The notes beneath the pieces were generated by a model that saw nothing but the letters and a program-made list of their open reading frames with translations, was not told where the DNA came from and ran no database searches. DNA of 32,000 bases from Methanocaldococcus jannaschii DSM 2661 (lineage in GTDB: Archaea; AGJL01; Methanococci; Methanococcales; Methanocaldococcaceae), in NCBI RefSeq assembly GCF_000091665.1, contig NC_000909.1, forward strand, positions 503,581-535,580, written 5' to 3'. Positions 6,540-14,981 of this stretch are shown here, piece by piece (position 1 is the stretch's first letter; each line of letters starts with the position of its first letter). The position numbers and the translations under genes were made by a program.

Positions 6540-6574
6540 ATAAACTTCTTTATTTTATTTTAAAATTTATCGAT

Positions 6575-6634
6575 ATATTTAAATCTTTTTTAAAAATATT
6601 AAAATGTATTAATTAATCGAAAGGTATAAATATT
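6575..6634 (+). promoter_or_regulatory. Conserved 60-bp promoter-proximal element, copy A (ends in TATA-like tataaatatt)
   Basis: Sequence atatttaaatcttttttaaaaatattaaaatgtattaattaatcgaaaggtataaatatt. It matches copy B at 54/60 positions and copy C at 53/60, with no gaps. It ends 46 nt before the ATG at 6681. Confidence 0.6.
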
Positions 6635-6680
6635 ACCTAATATATTTTTACTCATAAGCGGAAAATAATGAGGTGGGGAT

Positions 6681-7250
6681 ATGAATCCAGAGATGATTAT
6701 GGAGATGATGAATTCAGACATTGCTAAAGAAATGGCTCCTAAAATGATGCCAAAGATGATGCCTTTAGCTTTAGAGAAGTTTTTGCAATATATTCCTGAA
6801 AATGAAAGAAAGGAGTTTATAGCAAGAATTGTTGATATAATTGTAAGCAAGGATGAGAATAAAGAAGTTTCTGCTGAATATTTGGATATGTTTGAAGCCC
6901 TACTAAATGTTAAAGGTTTAAAAATCCATTCAAGAGGAGGAAAAGGGGCAATAAAGGAAAAAATATCCCCAATGGATTTGTTTTTAGCTGGGCTTTGTGG
7001 ATGTGTTTGCATAGCTGTTGGTAATACATTAAAAGCTAACAACATAGATGCTGAGATAAAAGTAGATGGAAAGGTTGAGAAATCCTTTGAAGAAGGAAAG
7101 ATAAAGAAGGTAATTATAAACATCTATGTAAAAGTTGATGGAGACATAGACAAAGAGAAATTAAAGAAATTAGTTTTAGAAGGCTCAAAAAAATGTTTAA
7201 TAAGCAACTCTATAAGCTGTGAGATTGAGAAGAATGTCATCCTTGAATAG
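6681..7250 (+). CDS. OsmC/Ohr-family (peroxiredoxin-like) protein with a Met-rich N-terminal extension
   Basis: The C-terminal half resembles OsmC domains, with two Cys regions (LAGLCGCVCIAVG... and KKCLISNSISCEIE). An SD gaggtgggg lies upstream. Confidence 0.65.
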   Translation: MNPEMIMEMMNSDIAKEMAPKMMPKMMPLALEKFLQYIPENERKEFIARIVDIIVSKDENKEVSAEYLDMFEALLNVKGLKIHSRGGKGAIKEKISPMDLFLAGLCGCVCIAVGNTLKANNIDAEIKVDGKVEKSFEEGKIKKVIINIYVKVDGDIDKEKLKKLVLEGSKKCLISNSISCEIEKNVILE

Positions 7251-7283
7251 GATTTGTCTCATTTGAATAACTAAGGGATATTT

Positions 7284-7565
7284 ATGTGGCCTTGTCCAAT
7301 AGGTTTTGGAATGGTTGGATTTCCAATTTTTGGATTTTTCTTTATGGGATTGTTTTTTGTTATTGGAATAGCAGTTTTTATAATAATTATTATTACCATT
7401 GTGGATATTTTAAAGAGGGATGCTTTAGATACTCTTGAAAAAATCTTATGGATATTGGTTGTCTGGTTTTTAGGGATAATTGGAGCAATAATTTACTATC
7501 TGTTATCTAAAAGAAACTCTAAGAGTAAAGGAGATAACAATGGCAAAAATATTGGTAGTAACTGA
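7284..7565 (+). CDS. Small two-TM membrane protein (PLD-N-terminal/short C-terminal-domain-like)
   Basis: Hydrophobic segments are followed by D...[27 protein letters not shown], a pattern seen in PLDc_N-type small membrane proteins. Confidence 0.55.
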
Positions 7566-8229
7566 TGGAGCTTATGGATACAGGATTAAAGGAACAATAA
7601 ACTCCTTTGGAAAGAAAAATAAATTCATTGGAATCTATAAAATCAACAAACCAGATGATTTGATAGTTGATGATATAGAGTTTCCAGATGAGTTGTTGGA
7701 AAAAATTAAAGAGGCTGATATTTTATTGCTTTATACTCAACATCCAGACAACACCTATTATCTCTGCTATGAGGCAAGGAGATTGAATAAAGATATTGCC
7801 ATAATCGTTGCTACGTGGAGTGGAGAGGGAGAGAAGAAGGAGCTAAAGAAGTTTGATGCTATATGTCCAGAAGAGATGTGTTTGTTGGATGAAAATGAGG
7901 TTGGAAGCTTGATAGATAAATATCCAAAATTAAAAGAATTTTTAGAAGAATTTGGAACTCCAAAGGTTAAGGTTTATGTTAAAGACAACAAAGTTATAGA
8001 TGTGGAGGTTTTAAGAACATCTATCTGCGGTTCAACCTTATTTATGGCTAAGCTGATGAAGGGAATGGAGGTTAATGATATTGAAGAATTTGCCAAAAAA
8101 TCTGCCATGCTAATTCAAAGATATCCATGCGTTGCTGGGAAGATAAAAATTTTTAGAGGAGATTGTAGAAAGCAAAAAGCATTAAACATACACAAAGAGG
8201 CTGTTTTAGAAGGGATAATTTTCATTTAA
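7540..8229 (+). CDS. Conserved archaeal hypothetical protein (possibly the DUF166/COG1810 family)
   Basis: An SD aaaggag lies upstream and the gene overlaps its upstream neighbour by 26 nt (operon). The family assignment is from memory only. Confidence 0.5.
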
Positions 8230-8289
8230 ATATTTAAATCTTTTTTAAAAACATTAAAATACATCAATTAATCGAAAACTATAAATATT
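8230..8289 (+). promoter_or_regulatory. Conserved 60-bp promoter-proximal element, copy B
   Basis: Sequence atatttaaatcttttttaaaaacattaaaatacatcaattaatcgaaaactataaatatt. It starts immediately after the stop codon at 8227-8229 and ends 51 nt before the ATG at 8341. Confidence 0.6.
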
Positions 8290-8340
8290 TGTTGTGTATT
8301 TTATTTTACCCATAAGTGGATATTTTAAAAGAGGGAGAGC

Positions 8341-9384
8341 ATGTTAGAGGCGTGTGAATCAAAATTAGACATAATTAAAAACTTCGTCCCTTCATGGTTT
8401 GCTGCAGTGATGGGAACTGGAATCTTAGCAGTTGATAGCTTACTATATTCATCTTATTTGCCAATTTTAAAAGATGTTGCAGTTGGATTGTTTTATTTCA
8501 ATGTTTTGTTGTTCTTTATATTCTTAGTTCCCTGGGTTTTAAGATGGATTATGTTCAAAGATAATGCTTTAGCTGATTTAAAGCATCCAGTTTTGAGTGC
8601 CTTTTATCCAACCATTGCAGTTAGTTGTTTAGTTTTAGGAGCTGACTTTATAAATATAGGGCATAATATGTTTTGGGGTGGAGTATTTTGGACTCTTGGT
8701 GCTATTGGCATGTTTTTATTCAGTTTGATAGTTCCGTTTTATATGTTTAAGTCTGAAAGTATAAAGTTAGACCATGTTAATCCGGGTTGGTATATTCCAC
8801 CTGTTGGTTTGATAGTTATTCCAATTGCCGGGAGTTTGATAATGCCTCATTTAACTGGAGTTTGGCATGAATTAACAGTTCTTATTAACTACTTCGGTTG
8901 GGGGGCTGGATTTTTCTTATATTTAGCTTTATTAGCAGTGGTAATTTATAGGTTTATACTGCATCATCCTCTACCCTCAGCAATGGCTCCAACAGTATGG
9001 ATTAACTTGGGGCCAATAGGGGCTGGAATTGTTGCCTTAATAAACATGGTTAATAACTCCCCATTCATAACAATAAAAGAGCCGTTTTATATCTTCTCCT
9101 TCATATTCTGGGGGTTTGGATTATGGTGGAGTTTGATGGCTATAATAATGACTCTCTACTATGTTAAAAAGCTAAAACTTCCTTATGCAATGTCATGGTG
9201 GGCATTCATCTTCCCATTGGGAGCTTATGTTGCATCATCACATTTAGTTTATAAAATATTCAAATTTAGTATAATCGATTACATAGGCTTTGGATTATAC
9301 TGGTTGTTATTCTTCTTCTGGGCGATAACTTTAATAAAAACAACAAACAAAGTTTATACTGGAGAAGTGTTTAAAGGTCATTAA
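8341..9384 (+). CDS. TDT-family (TehA/Mae1/SLAC1-like) anion / C4-dicarboxylate transporter
   Basis: About 10 predicted TM segments. The N-terminal FVPSWFAAVMGTGILA motif is characteristic of TehA-type transporters. Confidence 0.85.
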   Translation: MLEACESKLDIIKNFVPSWFAAVMGTGILAVDSLLYSSYLPILKDVAVGLFYFNVLLFFIFLVPWVLRWIMFKDNALADLKHPVLSAFYPTIAVSCLVLGADFINIGHNMFWGGVFWTLGAIGMFLFSLIVPFYMFKSESIKLDHVNPGWYIPPVGLIVIPIAGSLIMPHLTGVWHELTVLINYFGWGAGFFLYLALLAVVIYRFILHHPLPSAMAPTVWINLGPIGAGIVALINMVNNSPFITIKEPFYIFSFIFWGFGLWWSLMAIIMTLYYVKKLKLPYAMSWWAFIFPLGAYVASSHLVYKIFKFSIIDYIGFGLYWLLFFFWAITLIKTTNKVYTGEVFKGH

Positions 9385-9400
9385 TAAAAGGGTGAGTGTT

Positions 9401-9880
9401 ATGTATAAAAAGATTCTTTATCCAACTGACTTCTCTGAAACTGCTGAGATTGCATTAAAGCATGTTAAGGCGTTTAAAACTCTTAAGGCGGAAGAAGTTA
9501 TTTTACTGCATGTTATAGATGAAAGAGAAATCAAAAAGAGAGATATATTCTCTCTACTCTTAGGTGTTGCAGGTTTGAATAAATCAGTTGAGGAGTTTGA
9601 AAATGAGCTAAAGAATAAACTTACTGAAGAAGCTAAAAATAAAATGGAAAATATCAAAAAAGAACTTGAAGATGTTGGATTTAAAGTTAAGGATATTATT
9701 GTTGTAGGAATTCCTCATGAAGAAATTGTTAAAATAGCTGAAGATGAGGGAGTAGATATAATTATAATGGGTTCTCATGGAAAAACAAACTTAAAAGAGA
9801 TATTACTTGGTTCAGTTACTGAAAATGTCATTAAAAAATCAAACAAACCAGTTTTAGTTGTTAAAAGAAAAAATAGCTAA
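9401..9880 (+). CDS. Universal stress protein (UspA family, ATP-binding type)
   Basis: YKKILYPTDFSE... and the C-terminal GSHGKTNLKEILLGSVTENVIKKSNKPVLVV (the G-2x-G-9x-G(S/T) ATP motif). The track ORF starts at GTG 9392, which lies inside the SD gggtga (9389-9395). ATG 9401 is the better-spaced start. Confidence 0.93.
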   Translation: MYKKILYPTDFSETAEIALKHVKAFKTLKAEEVILLHVIDEREIKKRDIFSLLLGVAGLNKSVEEFENELKNKLTEEAKNKMENIKKELEDVGFKVKDIIVVGIPHEEIVKIAEDEGVDIIIMGSHGKTNLKEILLGSVTENVIKKSNKPVLVVKRKNS

Positions 9881-11490: not shown

Positions 11491-11820
11491 TCACTCAAAT
11501 TTTTCTAATTTTCCTTCTAAAAATAGCTTTATGCATTCATCAATAGATGTTGTATTAGCTTTATAAACATCAATGCCAAGCTGTTTAAAAACACTGTATG
11601 CCTTAGGTCCTATATTTTGGACTATTATGGCATTTACACCCATATTTGCAATTAATGAGGCTGATGTAGTTCCAACTCCATGCATGCCATTTCTTGCAGT
11701 GTTTTCAATGATCTCTTTATTTTTTATCTCTCCATTTTCAATCTCTACAATCATGAATTTTTCACACCTTCCAAAGTGTGGAGATAGCCGATTGTTATCT
11801 ATAGGTAGAGCTATTTTCAT
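11491..11820 (-). CDS. NifX/NifB-C-terminal-like (dinitrogenase FeMo-cofactor-binding fold) small protein
   Basis: MKIALPIDNNRLSPHFGRCEKFMIVEI... is typical of the NifX/NifY/NafY-type domain. An SD GGTGA (complement of 11826-11830) lies 5 nt before ATG 11820. The track start is 11847. Confidence 0.8.
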   Translation of the reverse strand: MKIALPIDNNRLSPHFGRCEKFMIVEIENGEIKNKEIIENTARNGMHGVGTTSASLIANMGVNAIIVQNIGPKAYSVFKQLGIDVYKANTTSIDECIKLFLEGKLEKFE

Positions 11821-11907
11821 TAATTTCACCTTTAAAATTTTCGTCATTCTTCAATATTACAACGCTTATGCGAGAAAATATATAAAATTTACTGAAATAT
11901 TATCCAA

Positions 11908-11967
11908 ATATTTGAATTCTTTTTAAAAATATTAAAATATATCAATTAATCGAAAACTATAAATATT
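11908..11967 (+). promoter_or_regulatory. Conserved 60-bp promoter-proximal element, copy C
   Basis: Sequence atatttgaattctttttaaaaatattaaaatatatcaattaatcgaaaactataaatatt. It matches copy B at 55/60 positions and ends 143 nt before ATG 12111. Confidence 0.6.
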
Positions 11968-11988
11968 ACTTTTAAAACCCAATAATAT

Positions 11989-12098
11989 TTAGTGTCTTTC
12001 AAAACATTTTGTAATACCTTAAGGTATTAATGAACGCCTTCCTTTAGGAAGGTGTTCAAATTTTCCTTAATAAATTTATTAATTTTGAAAGACACTAA
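11989..12098. repeat. 110-bp element bounded by perfect 16-bp terminal inverted repeats and containing three internal hairpins (MITE-like insertion or structured 5' leader)
   Basis: ttagtgtctttcaaaa (11989-12004) is the exact reverse complement of ttttgaaagacactaa (12083-12098). Internal hairpins: 12012-12018/12023-12029; 12031-12042/12047-12058 (12 bp including one G-U pair, loop ttta); and the palindrome ttaataaatttattaa at 12067-12082. Confidence 0.6.
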
Positions 12099-12110
12099 TT
12101 GGTGAGGGTT

Positions 12111-12359
12111 ATGGTAGTGATAAGGATATTCGGAACGGGCTGTCCAAAATGTAACCAAACATACGAGAACGTTAAAAAAGCAGTAGAAGAACTTGGCATA
12201 GATGCAGAGATTGTTAAAGTTACAGATGTCAATGAGATAGCTGAATGGGTTTTTGTTACACCTGGAGTAGCATTTGACGATGTAATTGTCTTTGAAGGAA
12301 AAATTCCCTCTGTTGAGGAAATTAAGGAAGAGTTAAAAAGTTACTTAGAGGGGAAATAA
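12111..12359 (+). CDS. Thioredoxin-fold 'redox-active disulfide protein 2'-type small protein (CPKC active site)
   Basis: MVVIRIFGTGCPKCNQTYENVKKA... is the typical N-terminus of this family. An SD ggtgagg lies at 12101-12107. The track start at 12099 is TTG. Confidence 0.8.
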   Translation: MVVIRIFGTGCPKCNQTYENVKKAVEELGIDAEIVKVTDVNEIAEWVFVTPGVAFDDVIVFEGKIPSVEEIKEELKSYLEGK

Positions 12360-12745
12360 TGAAAGTGGCAATTATCGCATGTCAAAAAATGGTTGAAATG
12401 GGATGTCCTGGGAAAGAGGCATGCGTATCTTGCTTTAAAGCAATAAATGAGAAGAGTGGAGCTTTTGAAAGATACAAAGATGTTGAGTTAGTTGCATTTA
12501 CAACCTGTGGGGGTTGTCCTGGAAGGAGATTTCCAATGAGAGTAAAGCTATTAAAAACTGCTGCTGGAGCTGAAGCTATTCATATAGCAAACTGCACCTT
12601 CTTACAGCCAGAATGCCCATACATAAACTTTGATGAAATCTGTAAGAAGTTGATGGAAGAGTTGGAGATTCCAATTGTATTTGGAACTCATACATTGGTT
12701 AAGAAAGGAGAAGTTGTTTGCACCTGTGGAGACAATAAGGAATAA
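12359..12745 (+). CDS. CGGC-domain protein
   Basis: Contains the TTCGGCPGRR motif and several additional Cys residues. Its ATG overlaps the upstream stop (ATAATG junction), which suggests translational coupling. Confidence 0.75.
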   Translation: MKVAIIACQKMVEMGCPGKEACVSCFKAINEKSGAFERYKDVELVAFTTCGGCPGRRFPMRVKLLKTAAGAEAIHIANCTFLQPECPYINFDEICKKLMEELEIPIVFGTHTLVKKGEVVCTCGDNKE

Positions 12746-12811
12746 CCCTATATTTATTTTTATAAATATTTTGATTAATTAACTCAAATTTATAGATTAT
12801 GTGGTGAAAAT

Positions 12812-12985
12812 ATGATTGTTTGGAACTTAATCTGTCCAAAGTGTGGAAAGAGGTTGAGATATAAGGTAGATGTTTGCCCGTGCATGGCTTCTGAGGTAGA
12901 GCTTCCAAACTGCCCAGATTGTGGAGAAAAGATGGTTCATGATTATACTTCATTAAAAGGAAGAAGGAGAATTAGGAGGGGATGA
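12812..12985 (+). CDS. 57-aa zinc-ribbon protein with a basic tail (not in the ORF track)
   Basis: Sequence MIVWNLICPKCGKRLRYKVDVCPCMASEVELPNCPDCGEKMVHDYTSLKGRRRIRRG*. An SD gtggtga lies at 12801-12807. The stop TGA overlaps the permease ATG (ATGA at 12982-12985). Cys pairs are CPKC, CPC and CPDC. Confidence 0.6.
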   Translation: MIVWNLICPKCGKRLRYKVDVCPCMASEVELPNCPDCGEKMVHDYTSLKGRRRIRRG

Positions 12986-14079
12986 AAATGGATGTTATGA
13001 GCTTTATAATGAACATTATTAATGTTATGATAAACACAATCATCGATTATTTAAATGTAAATAGAGTCTTAGCCTTATTGATGGCTTTCTTAATGGCTGG
13101 AGGCATTGCTTCAATGATTAACAAGAACTTTATTATAAAATATTTCGGTTCAAACACACCAAAATACATATCCTATACTGTAGCTGCTGTTAGTGGTAGC
13201 TTATTAGCTGTCTGTTCTTGCACTATCCTTCCATTATTTGCCAGTATTTACAAAAGAGGAGCTGGAATAGGGCCAGCAACAACATTCTTGTTCTCTGGGC
13301 CAGCAATAAATGTTTTGGCTATATTTTACTCAGCGGCATTGCTTGGATGGGACATTGGATTTTTAAGGGCTGTGTTTGCAGTAGTAGTCTCAATACTTAT
13401 TGGTTTATCAATGGAGATAATATTTAAAAGCCATGAGAAAAAGAGAGCTTTAAGAGTCCCAAAGGCAGATAAAATATCAGATAGGCCTCTATATCAAACA
13501 ATAACATTCTTTGCTCTGCAGTTTATCATGTTGTTGGTAATTACCGCCTCACCCAAGCTGTTTCCAACGTTATCAATGCCTCTATACGATGGATTTTTAT
13601 TAAAGCATCTGCTATTTATAATACTTGGGATTATCTTGGCTGTAACAACAAAAATCTGGTTTAAAGATGAGGAGATTAAGAACTGGCTCAGAGAGAGCTT
13701 TACACTGCTAAAGATTGTCTTTCCACTGCTAATTATTGGAGTTGCCATAGCTGGAGCTATTAAGGCAATTATCCCACCAAGTTATATAGCAACCTATGTA
13801 GGAGGAAACTCCATAACTGCCAACTTTATTGCCTCATTTATTGGAGCTTTGATGTATTTCGCCACATTAACAGAAGTGCCAATTATAAAGGCATTGATGG
13901 AGCTTGGTATGGGTGTAGGGCCGGCAATGGCTCTGCTGTTAGCTGGACCAAGTTTGAGTATTCCAACAGTCTTAACCATCTCAAAAGTCTTAGGAAAGAC
14001 GAAGGCTTTAACATATTTGGGTTTAGTTGTTATATTCTCAACAATATGTGGCTATATAGCTGGAATAATCCTCAGATAA
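12982..14079 (+). CDS. COG0701/DUF318-type permease (ArsP-like family)
   Basis: Polytopic membrane protein with a vicinal-Cys motif AVCSCTILP in an early TM segment, as I recall for ArsP-type permeases. Its genomic context (thioredoxin-like and CGGC genes) is typical for this family. Confidence 0.8.
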   Translation: MKMDVMSFIMNIINVMINTIIDYLNVNRVLALLMAFLMAGGIASMINKNFIIKYFGSNTPKYISYTVAAVSGSLLAVCSCTILPLFASIYKRGAGIGPATTFLFSGPAINVLAIFYSAALLGWDIGFLRAVFAVVVSILIGLSMEIIFKSHEKKRALRVPKADKISDRPLYQTITFFALQFIMLLVITASPKLFPTLSMPLYDGFLLKHLLFIILGIILAVTTKIWFKDEEIKNWLRESFTLLKIVFPLLIIGVAIAGAIKAIIPPSYIATYVGGNSITANFIASFIGALMYFATLTEVPIIKALMELGMGVGPAMALLLAGPSLSIPTVLTISKVLGKTKALTYLGLVVIFSTICGYIAGIILR

Positions 14080-14098
14080 GATAATATTTGGTGAAGAA

Positions 14099-14716
14099 AT
14101 GAAAAAATTAGCTTTTTTAATACTTTTAATTGTATTTTCTAATTTATCATTAGTAAATGCTATAGATGACAATATCTCAAATTACAGCAAAGAAATTAAT
14201 GAACTTACTGTAAAATTAAAAGAATTAGAGAGTAAAAATCCAAACGATGAGAGGATTGAAGAATATAAAGAGAAACTAAAACAATTGATAGAGAAACAGC
14301 ATGAATTAAAATCTCAAAATCTAAAATATAATGAAACTTTGGCATATATCCAAAGTGAAGAGTATTGGAAAATGCAGGAAGAGATTTGGGAATATAACAA
14401 TAAGGTTATGAAATGGTTTATTGCTATCTCAATCTTAATTTTAGGGATAATTTTAGCTACATTATGGATTCTTAGAAAAGATAAGTTTTTGTTATTCTTG
14501 GCAATATTTGGGTTGATAGTCCCATTCTTACAATTTAAAATTCCGAATTGGTTATTTAATATCTTAGCACTGCCTTTATTTGTCTATATTAAATTTATCG
14601 TTCCCGAATGCGCAGAAGGAAGCTTTTACTACAGCCCTTTAATAACTATACCAATCTCAATGTATGGATGGATATTAATTGGTTTGGCAGTTAAATTTAT
14701 AATAAAAAAGTATTAA
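14099..14716 (+). CDS. Hypothetical membrane protein (signal peptide, coiled-coil segment, three C-terminal TM helices)
   Basis: An SD tggtga lies upstream, 19 nt after the permease stop (same operon). The N-terminus is hydrophobic, followed by a K/E-rich helical region. Confidence 0.6.
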   Translation: MKKLAFLILLIVFSNLSLVNAIDDNISNYSKEINELTVKLKELESKNPNDERIEEYKEKLKQLIEKQHELKSQNLKYNETLAYIQSEEYWKMQEEIWEYNNKVMKWFIAISILILGIILATLWILRKDKFLLFLAIFGLIVPFLQFKIPNWLFNILALPLFVYIKFIVPECAEGSFYYSPLITIPISMYGWILIGLAVKFIIKKY

Positions 14717-14720
14717 AAAT

Positions 14721-14891
14721 TTATAACTCTTTTTTAACCTTCTCATTTAATTCTTTTAATTTGTTGTATAGCTCTTCGTAATCCTTAGTTTCTAAGCCAA
14801 GTTCTTTTAATTGGTTTAGTATAGCTTCAAAATGCTCCTCTGTATGATGTAAAGTATGAAGAAGCTTTTTTATTAATTTTTCCCTTTCCAT
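14721..14891 (-). CDS. 56-aa helical His-rich hypothetical protein (not in the ORF track)
   Basis: Sequence MEREKLIKKLLHTLHHTEEHFEAILNQLKELGLETKDYEELYNKLKELNEKVKKEL*. An SD GGTGA lies 4 nt upstream of the ATG (complement of 14896-14900). Confidence 0.4.
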   Translation of the reverse strand: MEREKLIKKLLHTLHHTEEHFEAILNQLKELGLETKDYEELYNKLKELNEKVKKEL

Positions 14892-14981
14892 ATTTTCACC
14901 AGTTAGTTATTTATACCCAACAATATAAACTAATGTTATCCAAAGTATATAAATGTTATTAAATTTTTGAGGGATAGTATT

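What the first reader, a model, noticed from the sequence alone, without database searches (positions are those of the whole stretch)
12111..14716. Five-gene thiol-rich operon with a hidden zinc-ribbon ORF coupled to an ArsP-like permease
The gene order is:
- thioredoxin-fold CPKC protein (12111-12359)
- CGGC-domain protein (12359-12745)
- an untracked 57-aa zinc-ribbon protein (12812-12985)
- COG0701 permease (12982-14079)
- a signal-peptide/coiled-coil membrane protein (14099-14716)

The zinc-ribbon ORF has its own SD. It carries the Cys groups CPKC/CPC/CPDC and an RRRIRR tail. It ends in an ATGA overlap with the permease start, which argues for real, coupled translation. The track instead shows an antisense ORF at 12699-12953.

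The permease has a vicinal-Cys CSC motif in an early TM segment. As I recall, that motif is essential in ArsP organoarsenical efflux permeases. The trx-like/CGGC/permease trio is a widespread but functionally unresolved module, and the extra zinc-ribbon and coiled-coil proteins are not part of the usual description.
Basis: partly seen in the sequence, partly recalled or inferred. Interest (0 to 1): 0.6.

Follow-up and report, generated by a model that had tools for sequence, protein, structure and literature searches.

The report
Zinc-ribbon partner of archaeal ArsP-type permease
A 57-residue cysteine-rich zinc-ribbon gene missed by the original annotation of Methanocaldococcus jannaschii is real, occurs only in Methanococcales, and always sits beside a metal/metalloid-type export pump whose helper it probably is; the rest of the cluster is the ordinary, widespread pump-plus-thioredoxin-like module.

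Summary
All five + strand ORFs, the Cys motifs, the SDs and the ATGA overlap are at the stated coordinates in M. jannaschii (chromosome 503581-535580).

**The zinc-ribbon ORF (12812-12985) is a real gene.**
- It is intact in 25 of 40 Methanococcales genomes, across all five genera.
- dN/dS is 0.02-0.13, and all six Cys are invariant.
- In all 25 genomes it lies next to a transporter gene, in seven gene orders, one of them reversed.
- The antisense 84-aa ORF is broken by stops in 13 of 20 relatives, so it is spurious.

**It is not hidden any more.** The exact protein is already in NCBI/UniRef as a hypothetical protein. No Pfam or NCBIfam family covers it, and a profile search of 1.8 billion proteins finds only three clusters.

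**The conserved core has three genes, not five.**
- Core: MTH895/ArsE-type thioredoxin-like protein, zinc ribbon, ArsP_1/UPF0718 permease (MJ0584, invariant CSC).
- CGGC is optional.
- The fifth gene is a ~640-bp insertion found only in M. jannaschii.

**Context.** Bacteria hold the same permease + thioredoxin-like pair under ArsR. Methanococcales instead use a lineage-specific operator-promoter, shared with OsmC and TehA/Usp operons.

**Best reading.** This is a thiophilic metal(loid) efflux module with a lineage-specific, co-translated Cys-rich accessory protein. Substrate and mechanism are inferred. The scan noted the same ORF in another genome (e1-2455377).

The parts
11895..11969 (+). Shared operator-promoter module (near-palindrome TCAATTAATCGA followed by TATAAATA) that heads the operon
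Evidence: There are three copies in the window: 6562-6636, 8217-8291 and 11895-11969. The same motif lies about 65-75 nt upstream of the first gene of the module in nearly all related loci, whatever the gene order, including genomes that have no zinc-ribbon gene. It also precedes the unlinked thioredoxin-like gene in one genus.
12111..12359 (+). Thioredoxin-like protein with CPKC, MTH895/ArsE family (MJ0581 by position)
   Evidence: PF13192 scores 81.8 bits. TIGR00412 scores 85.1 bits against a cut-off of 62. It is a homologue of the MTH895 NMR structure 1ILO, E 4e-14. It is lost together with the permease in G009, G013 and G015.
12359..12745 (+). CGGC-domain protein, 11 Cys including a C-terminal CTC; optional member
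   Evidence: PF08821 scores 91 bits. It is found in only 7 genomes, all of one genus. The AF2 model has pLDDT 72 and an alpha/beta three-layer fold, and it gives only generic lumazine-synthase-like Foldseek hits. There is no solved relative by sequence.
12812..12985 (+). 57-aa zinc-ribbon protein with six invariant Cys (C8, C11, C22, C24, C34, C37), the invariant core DVCPC(M)ASEV and a basic tail
   Evidence: It is conserved in 25 of 40 Methanococcales genomes. The alignment is. dN/dS is 0.015-0.125. The AF2 model has pLDDT 83, with a beta-hairpin at 2-7/14-19 and a helix at 23-28. No curated family is above cut-off. Only three 50%-identity clusters were found among 1.8 billion proteins.
12974..12979 (+). 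Shine-Dalgarno (AGGAGG) of the permease, embedded in the Arg codons of the zinc-ribbon tail
   Evidence: Sequence. The equivalent GGAGG/GGTGA lies inside the last codons of the zinc-ribbon gene in most relatives (13 of 20) where the permease follows.
12982..14079 (+). ArsP_1 / UPF0718 / COG0701 permease MJ0584 with about 10 TM segments, CSC at residues 78-80 and an internal two-fold repeat. The start is 12982 or, more likely, 12988.
   Evidence: PF03773 scores 329 bits. It is the only ArsP_1 gene in the genome. CSC is invariant. The N- and C-halves align at E 2e-8. The name 'UPF0718 protein MJ0584' appears in PMC10138600.
14099..14716 (+). 205-aa signal-peptide / coiled-coil / TM protein; an M. 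jannaschii-specific insertion, not part of the conserved module
   Evidence: In four close relatives the permease stop is followed directly by the sequence that matches window 14717-14720 onward. Homologues occur in 8 of 40 genomes and are never linked to the module. No family is above cut-off.
12699..12953 (-). Spurious antisense ORF (84 aa) of the old annotation
   Evidence: Its frame carries stops in 13 of 20 relatives. The exact product is absent from the 15-billion-protein collection. It has no family hit.

Best explanation
The locus is the Methanococcales version of the widespread 'ArsP-type permease + MTH895/ArsE-type thioredoxin-like protein' module for exporting a thiol-reactive (soft) metal or metalloid.

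Shown:
- The conserved genes are the thioredoxin-like protein, the 57-aa zinc-ribbon protein and the 10-TM permease with an invariant CSC.
- They are driven by a lineage-specific operator-promoter. That element also heads an OsmC operon and a TehA/SLAC1-Usp operon, so the module belongs to a stress regulon.
- The zinc-ribbon gene is real, strongly constrained, restricted to Methanococcales and always abuts a transporter gene. The permease's ribosome-binding site lies inside its last codons, so the two are made together.

Inferred:
- C8/C11 and C34/C37 hold a structural Zn.
- The invariant CPC at 22-24 is the working site. It binds the thiophilic substrate or exchanges thiol ligands, and hands the substrate to the permease's CSC or gates that site at the cytoplasmic face. 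The basic tail keeps the protein at the membrane or on the pump.
- The CxxC thioredoxin-like protein, and CGGC where present, keep these thiols reduced or prepare the substrate.
- The substrate is probably arsenite or another arsenical, or a similar soft metal(loid). The genome has no Acr3 or ArsB.
- The protein is an enhancer, not an obligatory subunit, because two lineages have the permease without it.
For: Gene reality:
- 25 of 40 genomes, no internal stops.
- dN/dS 0.015-0.125, against stops in the antisense frame.
- A conserved SD before every copy.
- The exact protein is already in public databases.

Coupling:
- Seven arrangements all keep the gene next to a transporter. They include a reversed permease-then-zinc-ribbon order with a 4-nt overlap.
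- Where the permease follows, the stop-to-start distance is -4 to +30 nt.
- In the two zinc-ribbon-less genomes of the same genus the permease has dropped to 62-63% identity. The neighbouring CGGC gene stays at 85-95% and the thioredoxin-like gene at 80-84%.
- The permease tree needs two independent losses, both on long branches.

Family and context:
- PF03773 329 bits, TIGR00412 85 bits.
- CSC is invariant in 5 Methanococcales and 20 bacterial homologues.
- 18 of 20 bacterial ArsP_1 loci have the thioredoxin-like gene close by on the same strand. At least six have an ArsR, five of them with a CVC motif.
- An arsR-arsP-arsE(PF13192)-DGC operon is induced by arsenic in P. mercurii ND132.
- There is no Acr3 or ArsB in this genome.

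Regulon: the operator is shared with OsmC and TehA/Usp operons. It is kept before the module in all gene orders and before the unlinked thioredoxin-like gene.
Against:
- No structure or family links the zinc ribbon to any known metallochaperone.
- Twelve genomes carry the permease without it: 11 intact copies and one fragment in G013.
- Three closely related genomes keep it with an MFS transporter after losing the ArsP_1 gene. It is therefore neither essential for nor exclusive to the ArsP_1 permease.
- There is no ArsR and no other ars gene nearby, and the co-regulated operons (OsmC, TehA, Usp) point to general thiol or oxyanion stress as much as to arsenic.
- The permease matches no characterised subfamily at equivalog level.
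Confidence: 0.6

Rival explanations
1. The zinc ribbon is a nucleic-acid-binding regulator, of transcription or translation, for the operon rather than a partner of the pump. The zinc ribbon plus basic tail would bind the shared operator or the mRNA in response to thiol or metal status sensed by the CPC.
For: - Small zinc ribbons with Arg/Lys tails are typical nucleic-acid binders. The weak best sequence and fold matches are to RNA-polymerase subunit P, MCM zinc domains and ribosome-associated zinc ribbons.
- It is the first gene behind the operator in many genomes.
- It survives loss of the ArsP_1 gene in three genomes.
Against: - The operator is intact before the permease in genomes with no zinc-ribbon gene anywhere: L056-L059, against zero matches for those genomes. 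It cannot be the regulator that the operator depends on.
- The tight stop/start junction with the transporter, kept in both orders, suggests 1:1 co-production. That is unusual for a regulator.
- All structural matches are non-significant, E > 0.1.
Confidence: 0.15
2. The zinc ribbon is a redox client or relay partner of the thioredoxin-like protein. Its CPC cycles between dithiol and disulfide, for example to reduce a substrate before export or to reactivate an oxidised CSC in the pump, without itself binding the transported species.
For: - The thioredoxin-like gene is within about 1.5 kb in 23 of 25 zinc-ribbon genomes. In the other two it is under the same operator.
- Every soluble product of the cluster carries CxC or CxxC.
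- After ArsP_1 loss the zinc ribbon stays with the thioredoxin-like gene.
Against: - The thioredoxin-like + permease pair works without any zinc ribbon in bacteria and in 11 Methanococcales genomes.
- The gene always abuts the transporter, not the thioredoxin-like gene.
- CxC disulfides are strained and are rarely used as relays (general knowledge).
Confidence: 0.2
3. The 57-codon frame is not translated. Its conservation would reflect an RNA or DNA element in the permease leader.
For: No proteomic or ribosome-profiling evidence was available here.
Against: - dN/dS is far below 1, with synonymous sites near saturation.
- There are invariant Cys pairs at zinc-ribbon spacing, a conserved SD and start codon, and a confident AF2 fold.
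- The gene is kept when it is moved downstream of the permease.
- There is no Rfam match.
Confidence: 0.02

Closest known systems
ArsP methylarsenite/roxarsone(III) efflux permease of Campylobacter jejuni (TC 2.A.119; Pfam ArsP_1 PF03773)
   Same: Same Pfam family, 329 bits. It shares the conserved Cys-x-Cys in an early TM segment and works as a secondary carrier (reviewed in PMC6205960).
   Different: MJ0584 belongs to a distinct 'AVCSCTILPLF' subtype with two extra central TM segments, whereas the common bacterial type reads 'TPFCSCS'. There is no ArsR and no ars neighbour. The substrate is untested. C. jejuni ArsP has no known zinc-ribbon partner.
arsR5-arsP-arsE-DGC operon of Pseudodesulfovibrio mercurii ND132 and the ArsR-ArsP_1-thioredoxin-like loci of many anaerobic bacteria
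   Same: An ArsP_1 permease lies directly next to a PF13192 thioredoxin-like protein, plus an extra Cys-rich protein that probably binds zinc. The ND132 operon is up-regulated by arsenic. 18 of 20 bacterial loci fetched here have the pair.
   Different: The bacterial loci are ArsR-controlled. Methanococcales use their own operator-promoter, shared with OsmC and TehA/Usp operons. The extra protein in bacteria is a DGC-domain protein, not a zinc ribbon. No bacterial locus held a zinc-ribbon homologue.
SO_0444 Cu/Zn efflux transporters and SaoE (NCBIfam NF033936, NF040736)
   Same: These are the nearest curated subfamilies. CSC (sometimes Sec-Ser-Cys) is their signature motif.
   Different: Scores are far below equivalog cut-offs: 118 against 300 and 130 against 325.
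Soluble metallochaperones that feed exporters: ArsD to ArsA, CopZ to CopA, MerP to MerT (general knowledge)
   Same: This is the proposed working principle: a small Cys-bearing soluble protein, encoded next to the transporter, hands a soft metal(loid) over by thiol ligand exchange.
   Different: There is no sequence or fold relationship. Those chaperones have thioredoxin-like or ferredoxin-like folds, and ArsD and CopZ serve ATPases. This is an analogy only and is untested.
MTH895 (PDB 1ILO) / ArsE thioredoxin-like proteins, TIGR00412
   Same: The first gene is a clear member: 85 bits against a cut-off of 62, E 4e-14 to 1ILO, and a CxxC motif.
   Different: The ArsE of the ArsEFG system was described for nitro-aromatic arsenical detoxification (Chen, Zhang and Rosen 2019). 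That is cited from memory and from notes e1-2890293 and e1-1587815, and was not read here. No ArsF or ArsG is present.

Membership tests
ArsP / UPF0718 / COG0701 permeases (Pfam PF03773, TC 2.A.119) | Profile match above the curated cut-off over the full length | tested here: met
   329.2 bits against 32.3, covering model positions 4-293 of 294. Whole-genome scan: one copy, 328.8 bits.
ArsP / UPF0718 / COG0701 permeases (Pfam PF03773, TC 2.A.119) | Conserved Cys-Ser-Cys in an early transmembrane segment | tested here: met
   C78-S79-C80 lies in the second hydrophobic segment. It is invariant in 5 Methanococcales and 20 bacterial homologues. The motif's status in the family comes from 10.1101/2022.07.06.499078.
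ArsP / UPF0718 / COG0701 permeases (Pfam PF03773, TC 2.A.119) | Two homologous halves (internal repeat) | tested here: met
   The N-half aligns with the C-half at E 2e-8, 26% identity over 74 residues. CSC aligns with ATL in the second half.
ArsP in the strict sense (organoarsenical exporter in an ars operon) | ArsR-controlled ars operon context | tested here: not met
   No ArsR or other ars gene is adjacent in any Methanococcales locus; a lineage-specific operator is there instead. Bacterial relatives do have ArsR.
ArsP in the strict sense (organoarsenical exporter in an ars operon) | Transport of MAs(III)/Rox(III) and resistance phenotype | not testable with these tools
   Needs expression in an ars-deleted laboratory E. 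coli strain, or deletion in a methanogen.
SaoE / SO_0444 subfamilies (NCBIfam equivalogs) | Score above the equivalog cut-off | tested here: not met
   130.1 against 325 and 118.3 against 300.
MTH895/ArsE thioredoxin-like proteins (TIGR00412, PF13192) | Profile match above cut-off, a CxxC motif and a solved relative | tested here: met
   85.1 bits against 62, PF13192 81.8 bits, CPKC motif, 1ILO E 4e-14.
CGGC domain (PF08821) | Profile match above cut-off | tested here: met
   91 bits against 27, full length of the model.
Zinc ribbon (generic fold class) | Two CPxC knuckles on beta-hairpins, about 20-25 residues apart | tested here: inconclusive
   CPKC at 8-11 and CPDC at 34-37 are invariant. 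AF2 places the first knuckle between strands 2-7 and 14-19, pLDDT 83. The best Foldseek hits are zinc ribbons, but with E of 0.35 or more. Metal content is untested.
Any curated small-protein family (e.g. DUF7479 PF24292, DVU_1557 NF045645) | Score above the family cut-off | tested here: not met
   18.5 bits against 27 and 17.5 against 60. Only 2 of 16 family members touch PF24292 at all.

The most novel reading that the evidence does not exclude
The 57-aa protein is the founding member of a new class of dedicated soluble partners for secondary (ArsP-family) metal(loid) exporters. It would be a zinc-stabilised mini-protein whose CPC site captures the substrate and passes it to the pump's CSC. 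That makes it an ArsD- or CopZ-like hand-off invented independently for a proton-driven carrier, in a hydrothermal-vent archaeal lineage.
Probability: 0.3. Interest if true: 0.65.

Novelty: new variant of a known kind. Interest (0 to 1): 0.45.

Why it matters
The ArsP/UPF0718 + thioredoxin-like pair is among the most common 'arsenic-type' modules in anaerobes, yet how the pump gets its substrate is unknown and no structure exists.

A lineage-restricted, tightly co-encoded mini-protein with an invariant CPC gives a concrete and testable handle on that step. The organisms concerned (Methanococcus, M. jannaschii) have genetic tools.

It also adds a well-supported small gene and removes a spurious one (MJ0583 by position) from a reference archaeal genome. 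And it ties the module to an operator-defined stress regulon (OsmC, TehA/Usp) whose signal and regulator are still unknown.

Tried and rejected
- **Family assignment of the zinc ribbon.** Pfam and NCBIfam give only sub-threshold generic zinc-ribbon hits. The PDB by sequence and by fold gives nothing significant. I therefore rejected the DUF7479/DVU_1557 lead.
- **Wider homologues.** The word-based search found 4 proteins and the exhaustive profile search found 3 clusters plus one chance hit. There are no fusions to permeases or thioredoxins.
- **Zinc ribbon as the regulator of the shared operator.** Rejected as the sole regulator, because genomes without the gene keep the operator.
- **Convergent permease substitutions after loss of the zinc ribbon.** Four columns separate zinc-ribbon-linked from zinc-ribbon-free permeases. 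Both loss lineages sit on long stems, so this number is not beyond chance and I make no claim from it.
- **CGGC function.** There is no solved relative. The AF2 model is only moderately confident, its fold hits are generic, and there is no DGC cross-hit at E of 10 or less.
- **Literature.** Nothing functional was found for MJ0581-MJ0584, the CGGC domain or UPF0718. The primary ArsP paper is not held, so the 'essential cysteines' statement rests on my memory of its abstract.
- **Internal promoter.** An operator-like sequence in the CGGC/zinc-ribbon spacer (about 12771-12784) lies too close to the start codon to serve as a promoter for this ORF. I left it as an aside.
- **Complex prediction.** I did not try to predict a zinc-ribbon/permease complex, because the structure tool takes single native chains only.
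- **Rfam.** No match across 11800-14950.
Full report
**Where we are.** The window is Methanocaldococcus jannaschii chromosome 503581-535580. The genome has 1,739,927 bases in 3 contigs. The permease is the protein UniProt calls 'UPF0718 protein MJ0584' (wording seen in PMC10138600). By position the neighbours are MJ0581 (thioredoxin-like), MJ0582 (CGGC), MJ0583 (the antisense ORF) and MJ0585 (the 205-aa protein). Those four tag assignments are my inference from gene order.

**Observation.**
- The thioredoxin-like and CGGC genes overlap by one base (TAATG).
- A 66-nt spacer precedes the 57-codon ORF, which has GGTGA 4 nt before its ATG.
- Its stop overlaps ATG 12982 (ATGA).
- The permease's SD (GGAGG, 12975-12979) is encoded by the Arg codons of the zinc-ribbon tail. 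It lies 2 nt from ATG 12982 and 8 nt from ATG 12988.
- Homologous permeases begin at the residue that corresponds to 12988. I therefore favour 12988 as the start. The two genes abut either way.

**Is the 57-aa ORF a gene? Yes.**
- A six-frame search of all 40 genomes of the order finds it in 25, across all five genera, always as an open frame with no stops, at 55-98% identity.
- The alignment has no internal gaps. Its invariant residues are W4, N5, L6, C8, P9, C11, D20, V21, C22, C24, A26, P32, C34 and C37.
- Nei-Gojobori dN/dS against M. jannaschii is 0.015-0.125 wherever dS is not saturated.
- The antisense frame of the old 84-aa ORF has stops in 13 of 20 relatives.
- Every copy has an SD-like GGTGA/GGAGG before the start.
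- AF2 on the 16-sequence alignment gives pLDDT 83: a hairpin at 2-7/14-19 around the first CPxC, a short helix carrying CPCMASE, the second knuckle, and a short C-terminal helix before the disordered basic tail.

**It is not hidden in current databases.**
- The exact sequence is in NCBI and UniRef.
- Cluster mates are named 'hypothetical protein' (WP_012981137.1, Methanocaldococcus sp. FS406-22), 'zinc ribbon-containing protein', or, by IMG, a topoisomerase-type zinc finger.
- The antisense product is absent from the collection.

**The family is undescribed and narrow.**
- No Pfam or NCBIfam model reaches its cut-off.
- PDB searches by sequence and by fold return only generic, non-significant zinc-ribbon matches.
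- An exhaustive profile search of 1.84 billion representative proteins returns three small-protein clusters and one chance hit.
- I saw no fusion to any other domain.

**What it travels with.** I found seven arrangements.

| Arrangement | Genomes |
|---|---|
| trx-CGGC-znr-perm | 5 |
| trx-znr-perm | 5 |
| znr-perm-trx | 6 |
| znr-perm-MFS-trx | 1 |
| znr-MFS-trx, with the ArsP_1 gene gone | 3 close relatives, one with the MFS gene frameshifted |
| znr followed by a divergent 324-aa ArsP_1 (TPFCSCS type, 25-29% identical) and a divergent thioredoxin-like gene | 3 |
| perm-znr, reversed order, with a 4-nt overlap or a 25-nt gap | 2 |

- In all 25 genomes the gene abuts a transporter gene.
- The thioredoxin-like gene is within about 1.5 kb in 23.
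- In the two reversed-order genomes it is unlinked but carries the same operator.
- Genomes that lack the permease, or keep only a fragment of it (G009, G015, G013), also lack the thioredoxin-like gene and the zinc ribbon.

**The zinc ribbon is dispensable for the permease.**
- Eleven genomes have an intact MJ0584-type permease but no zinc-ribbon gene.
- The permease tree places them in two separate clades. That means at least two losses, both on long branches.
- In the two zinc-ribbon-less Methanocaldococcus genomes the permease is 62-63% identical to MJ0584. The CGGC gene next to it is 85-95% identical and the thioredoxin-like gene 80-84%.
- In zinc-ribbon-bearing congeners of similar CGGC identity the permease is 91-95% identical.
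- Loss of the small gene therefore goes with a disproportionate change in the pump. That is the best indirect sign here of a functional tie.
- Replacement of the permease by an unsampled xenologue is not excluded.
- Four alignment columns fully separate the two classes, but given the long stems this is not beyond chance.

**The other genes.**
- *Permease.* It is a full-length PF03773 member, the only one in the genome. It has about ten hydrophobic segments, a basic central loop and an internal repeat in which CSC aligns with ATL of the second half. It falls far short of the SaoE and SO_0444 equivalog cut-offs. No homologue has a solved structure.
- *Thioredoxin-like protein.* It is a clear MTH895/ArsE-family member with a solved relative, 1ILO.
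- *CGGC.* It is a bona fide PF08821 protein but occurs in only seven genomes of one genus. Its model is a generic alpha/beta sandwich. It ends in a conserved CTC/CSC, so every soluble product of the cluster carries CxC or CxxC.
- *The fifth gene is an interloper.* In four close relatives the end of the permease gene is followed directly by the sequence matching window 14717-14720 onward. Its homologues in 7 other genomes lie elsewhere. In M. jannaschii it is probably co-transcribed, given a 19-nt gap, an SD and no T-run, but it is not part of the system.

**Comparison with bacteria.**
- A degenerate-pattern scan of 185,579 species genomes with a permease alignment returned 20 bacterial loci.
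- In 18 of them a thioredoxin-like gene of the same family lies close to the permease on the same strand, immediately adjacent in most.
- Seven ORFs in six of those loci are ArsR-family. In five of the loci the ArsR carries the CVC motif. As I recall, that motif forms the As(III) site of R773-type ArsR.
- None has a zinc-ribbon homologue.
- A preprint on Pseudodesulfovibrio mercurii ND132 describes an arsR5-arsP-arsE(PF13192)-DGC operon that is up-regulated by arsenic.
- The core pair is therefore a known, named module in an arsenic setting. The Methanococcales novelty is the zinc-ribbon partner and the replacement of ArsR.

**Regulation.**
- The 75-nt element at 11895-11969 has two more copies in the window. 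They lie in front of OsmC/PLDc_N/DUF166 and TehA(SLAC1)/Usp.
- Its core, AATTAATCGAAA followed by TATAAATA, lies 65-75 nt before the first gene of the module in nearly every relative, whatever the gene order.
- Loci of genomes with no zinc-ribbon gene also have it. The zinc ribbon therefore cannot be the factor this operator depends on.

**Mechanism, and how sure I am.**

| Statement | Probability |
|---|---|
| The zinc ribbon is a real protein | ~0.97 |
| It works with the transporter module | ~0.8 |
| It acts as a Zn-scaffolded CPC site that captures or hands over a thiophilic substrate, or gates the pump | ~0.35-0.4 |
| It is a redox relay partner of the thioredoxin-like protein | ~0.2 |
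| It is a nucleic-acid-binding regulator | ~0.15 |

The substrate is unknown. Three things favour an arsenical or similar soft metal(loid):
- the absence of Acr3 and ArsB from the genome;
- the ArsR context of bacterial relatives;
- the CxC chemistry.

The co-regulated OsmC and TehA/Usp operons keep a broader thiol or oxyanion stress role open.

**Novelty.** This is a new variant of a known kind. The module is known. The small partner family is already called as a gene but is uncharacterised, unnamed and lineage-restricted. The scan's first stage noted the same ORF in another genome (e1-2455377). An analogous Cys-rich mini-peptide next to an ArsP-type permease was noted in a CPR bacterium (e1-1082963). 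I did not re-test those notes.

Noticed in passing
window 6562-6636 and 8217-8291: Two further copies of the operator-promoter module. They head an OsmC-like / PLDc_N / DUF166 operon (6681-8229) and a TehA/SLAC1-type anion channel plus Usp operon (8341-9880). This defines a small stress regulon with the permease module.
   Followed up: partly
window 14081-14716: The 205-aa membrane protein gene is a ~640-bp insertion relative to four close relatives. Its C-terminal TM domain recurs in unlinked paralogues, and in much longer open frames (467-608 aa), in other Methanococcales.
   Followed up: partly
window 14721-14891 (-): The 56-aa His-rich helical ORF, convergent with the operon, is conserved at 93-96% identity in three relatives, directly after the permease stop. 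It looks like another real small gene (see note e1-2523018).
   Followed up: partly
L021 2787-3935 (-), L022 4349-5497 (+), L026 4352-5502 (+): In three related genomes the ArsP_1 gene between the zinc-ribbon and thioredoxin-like genes is gone, and a Cys-free 382-aa MFS transporter remains (PF07690). It is frameshifted in one of them. A fourth genome (L023) has both transporters in a row.
   Followed up: partly
window about 12771-12784: The spacer between CGGC and the zinc-ribbon gene contains TTGATTAATTAAC, a 10-of-12 match to the operator palindrome, followed by a TATA-like TTTATAGA. It lies too close to the ATG to drive this ORF, so it may be a relic of an ancestral separate zinc ribbon-permease promoter. 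The same spacer sequence persists in the two genomes that lost the zinc-ribbon gene.
   Followed up: no
G013:C1:260318-260668: Only a C-terminal 117-residue fragment of the permease remains (86% identity), with no zinc-ribbon or thioredoxin-like gene in that genome. This is a decaying copy of the module.
   Followed up: no
L074 894-2192, L075 2827-4302: Two uncultured bacterial MAGs (one Clostridia, one unclassified) carry permeases of the archaeal 'AVCSCTILPLF' subtype, 40-47% identical, each followed by a thioredoxin-like gene. This suggests inter-domain transfer of the pair.
   Followed up: no
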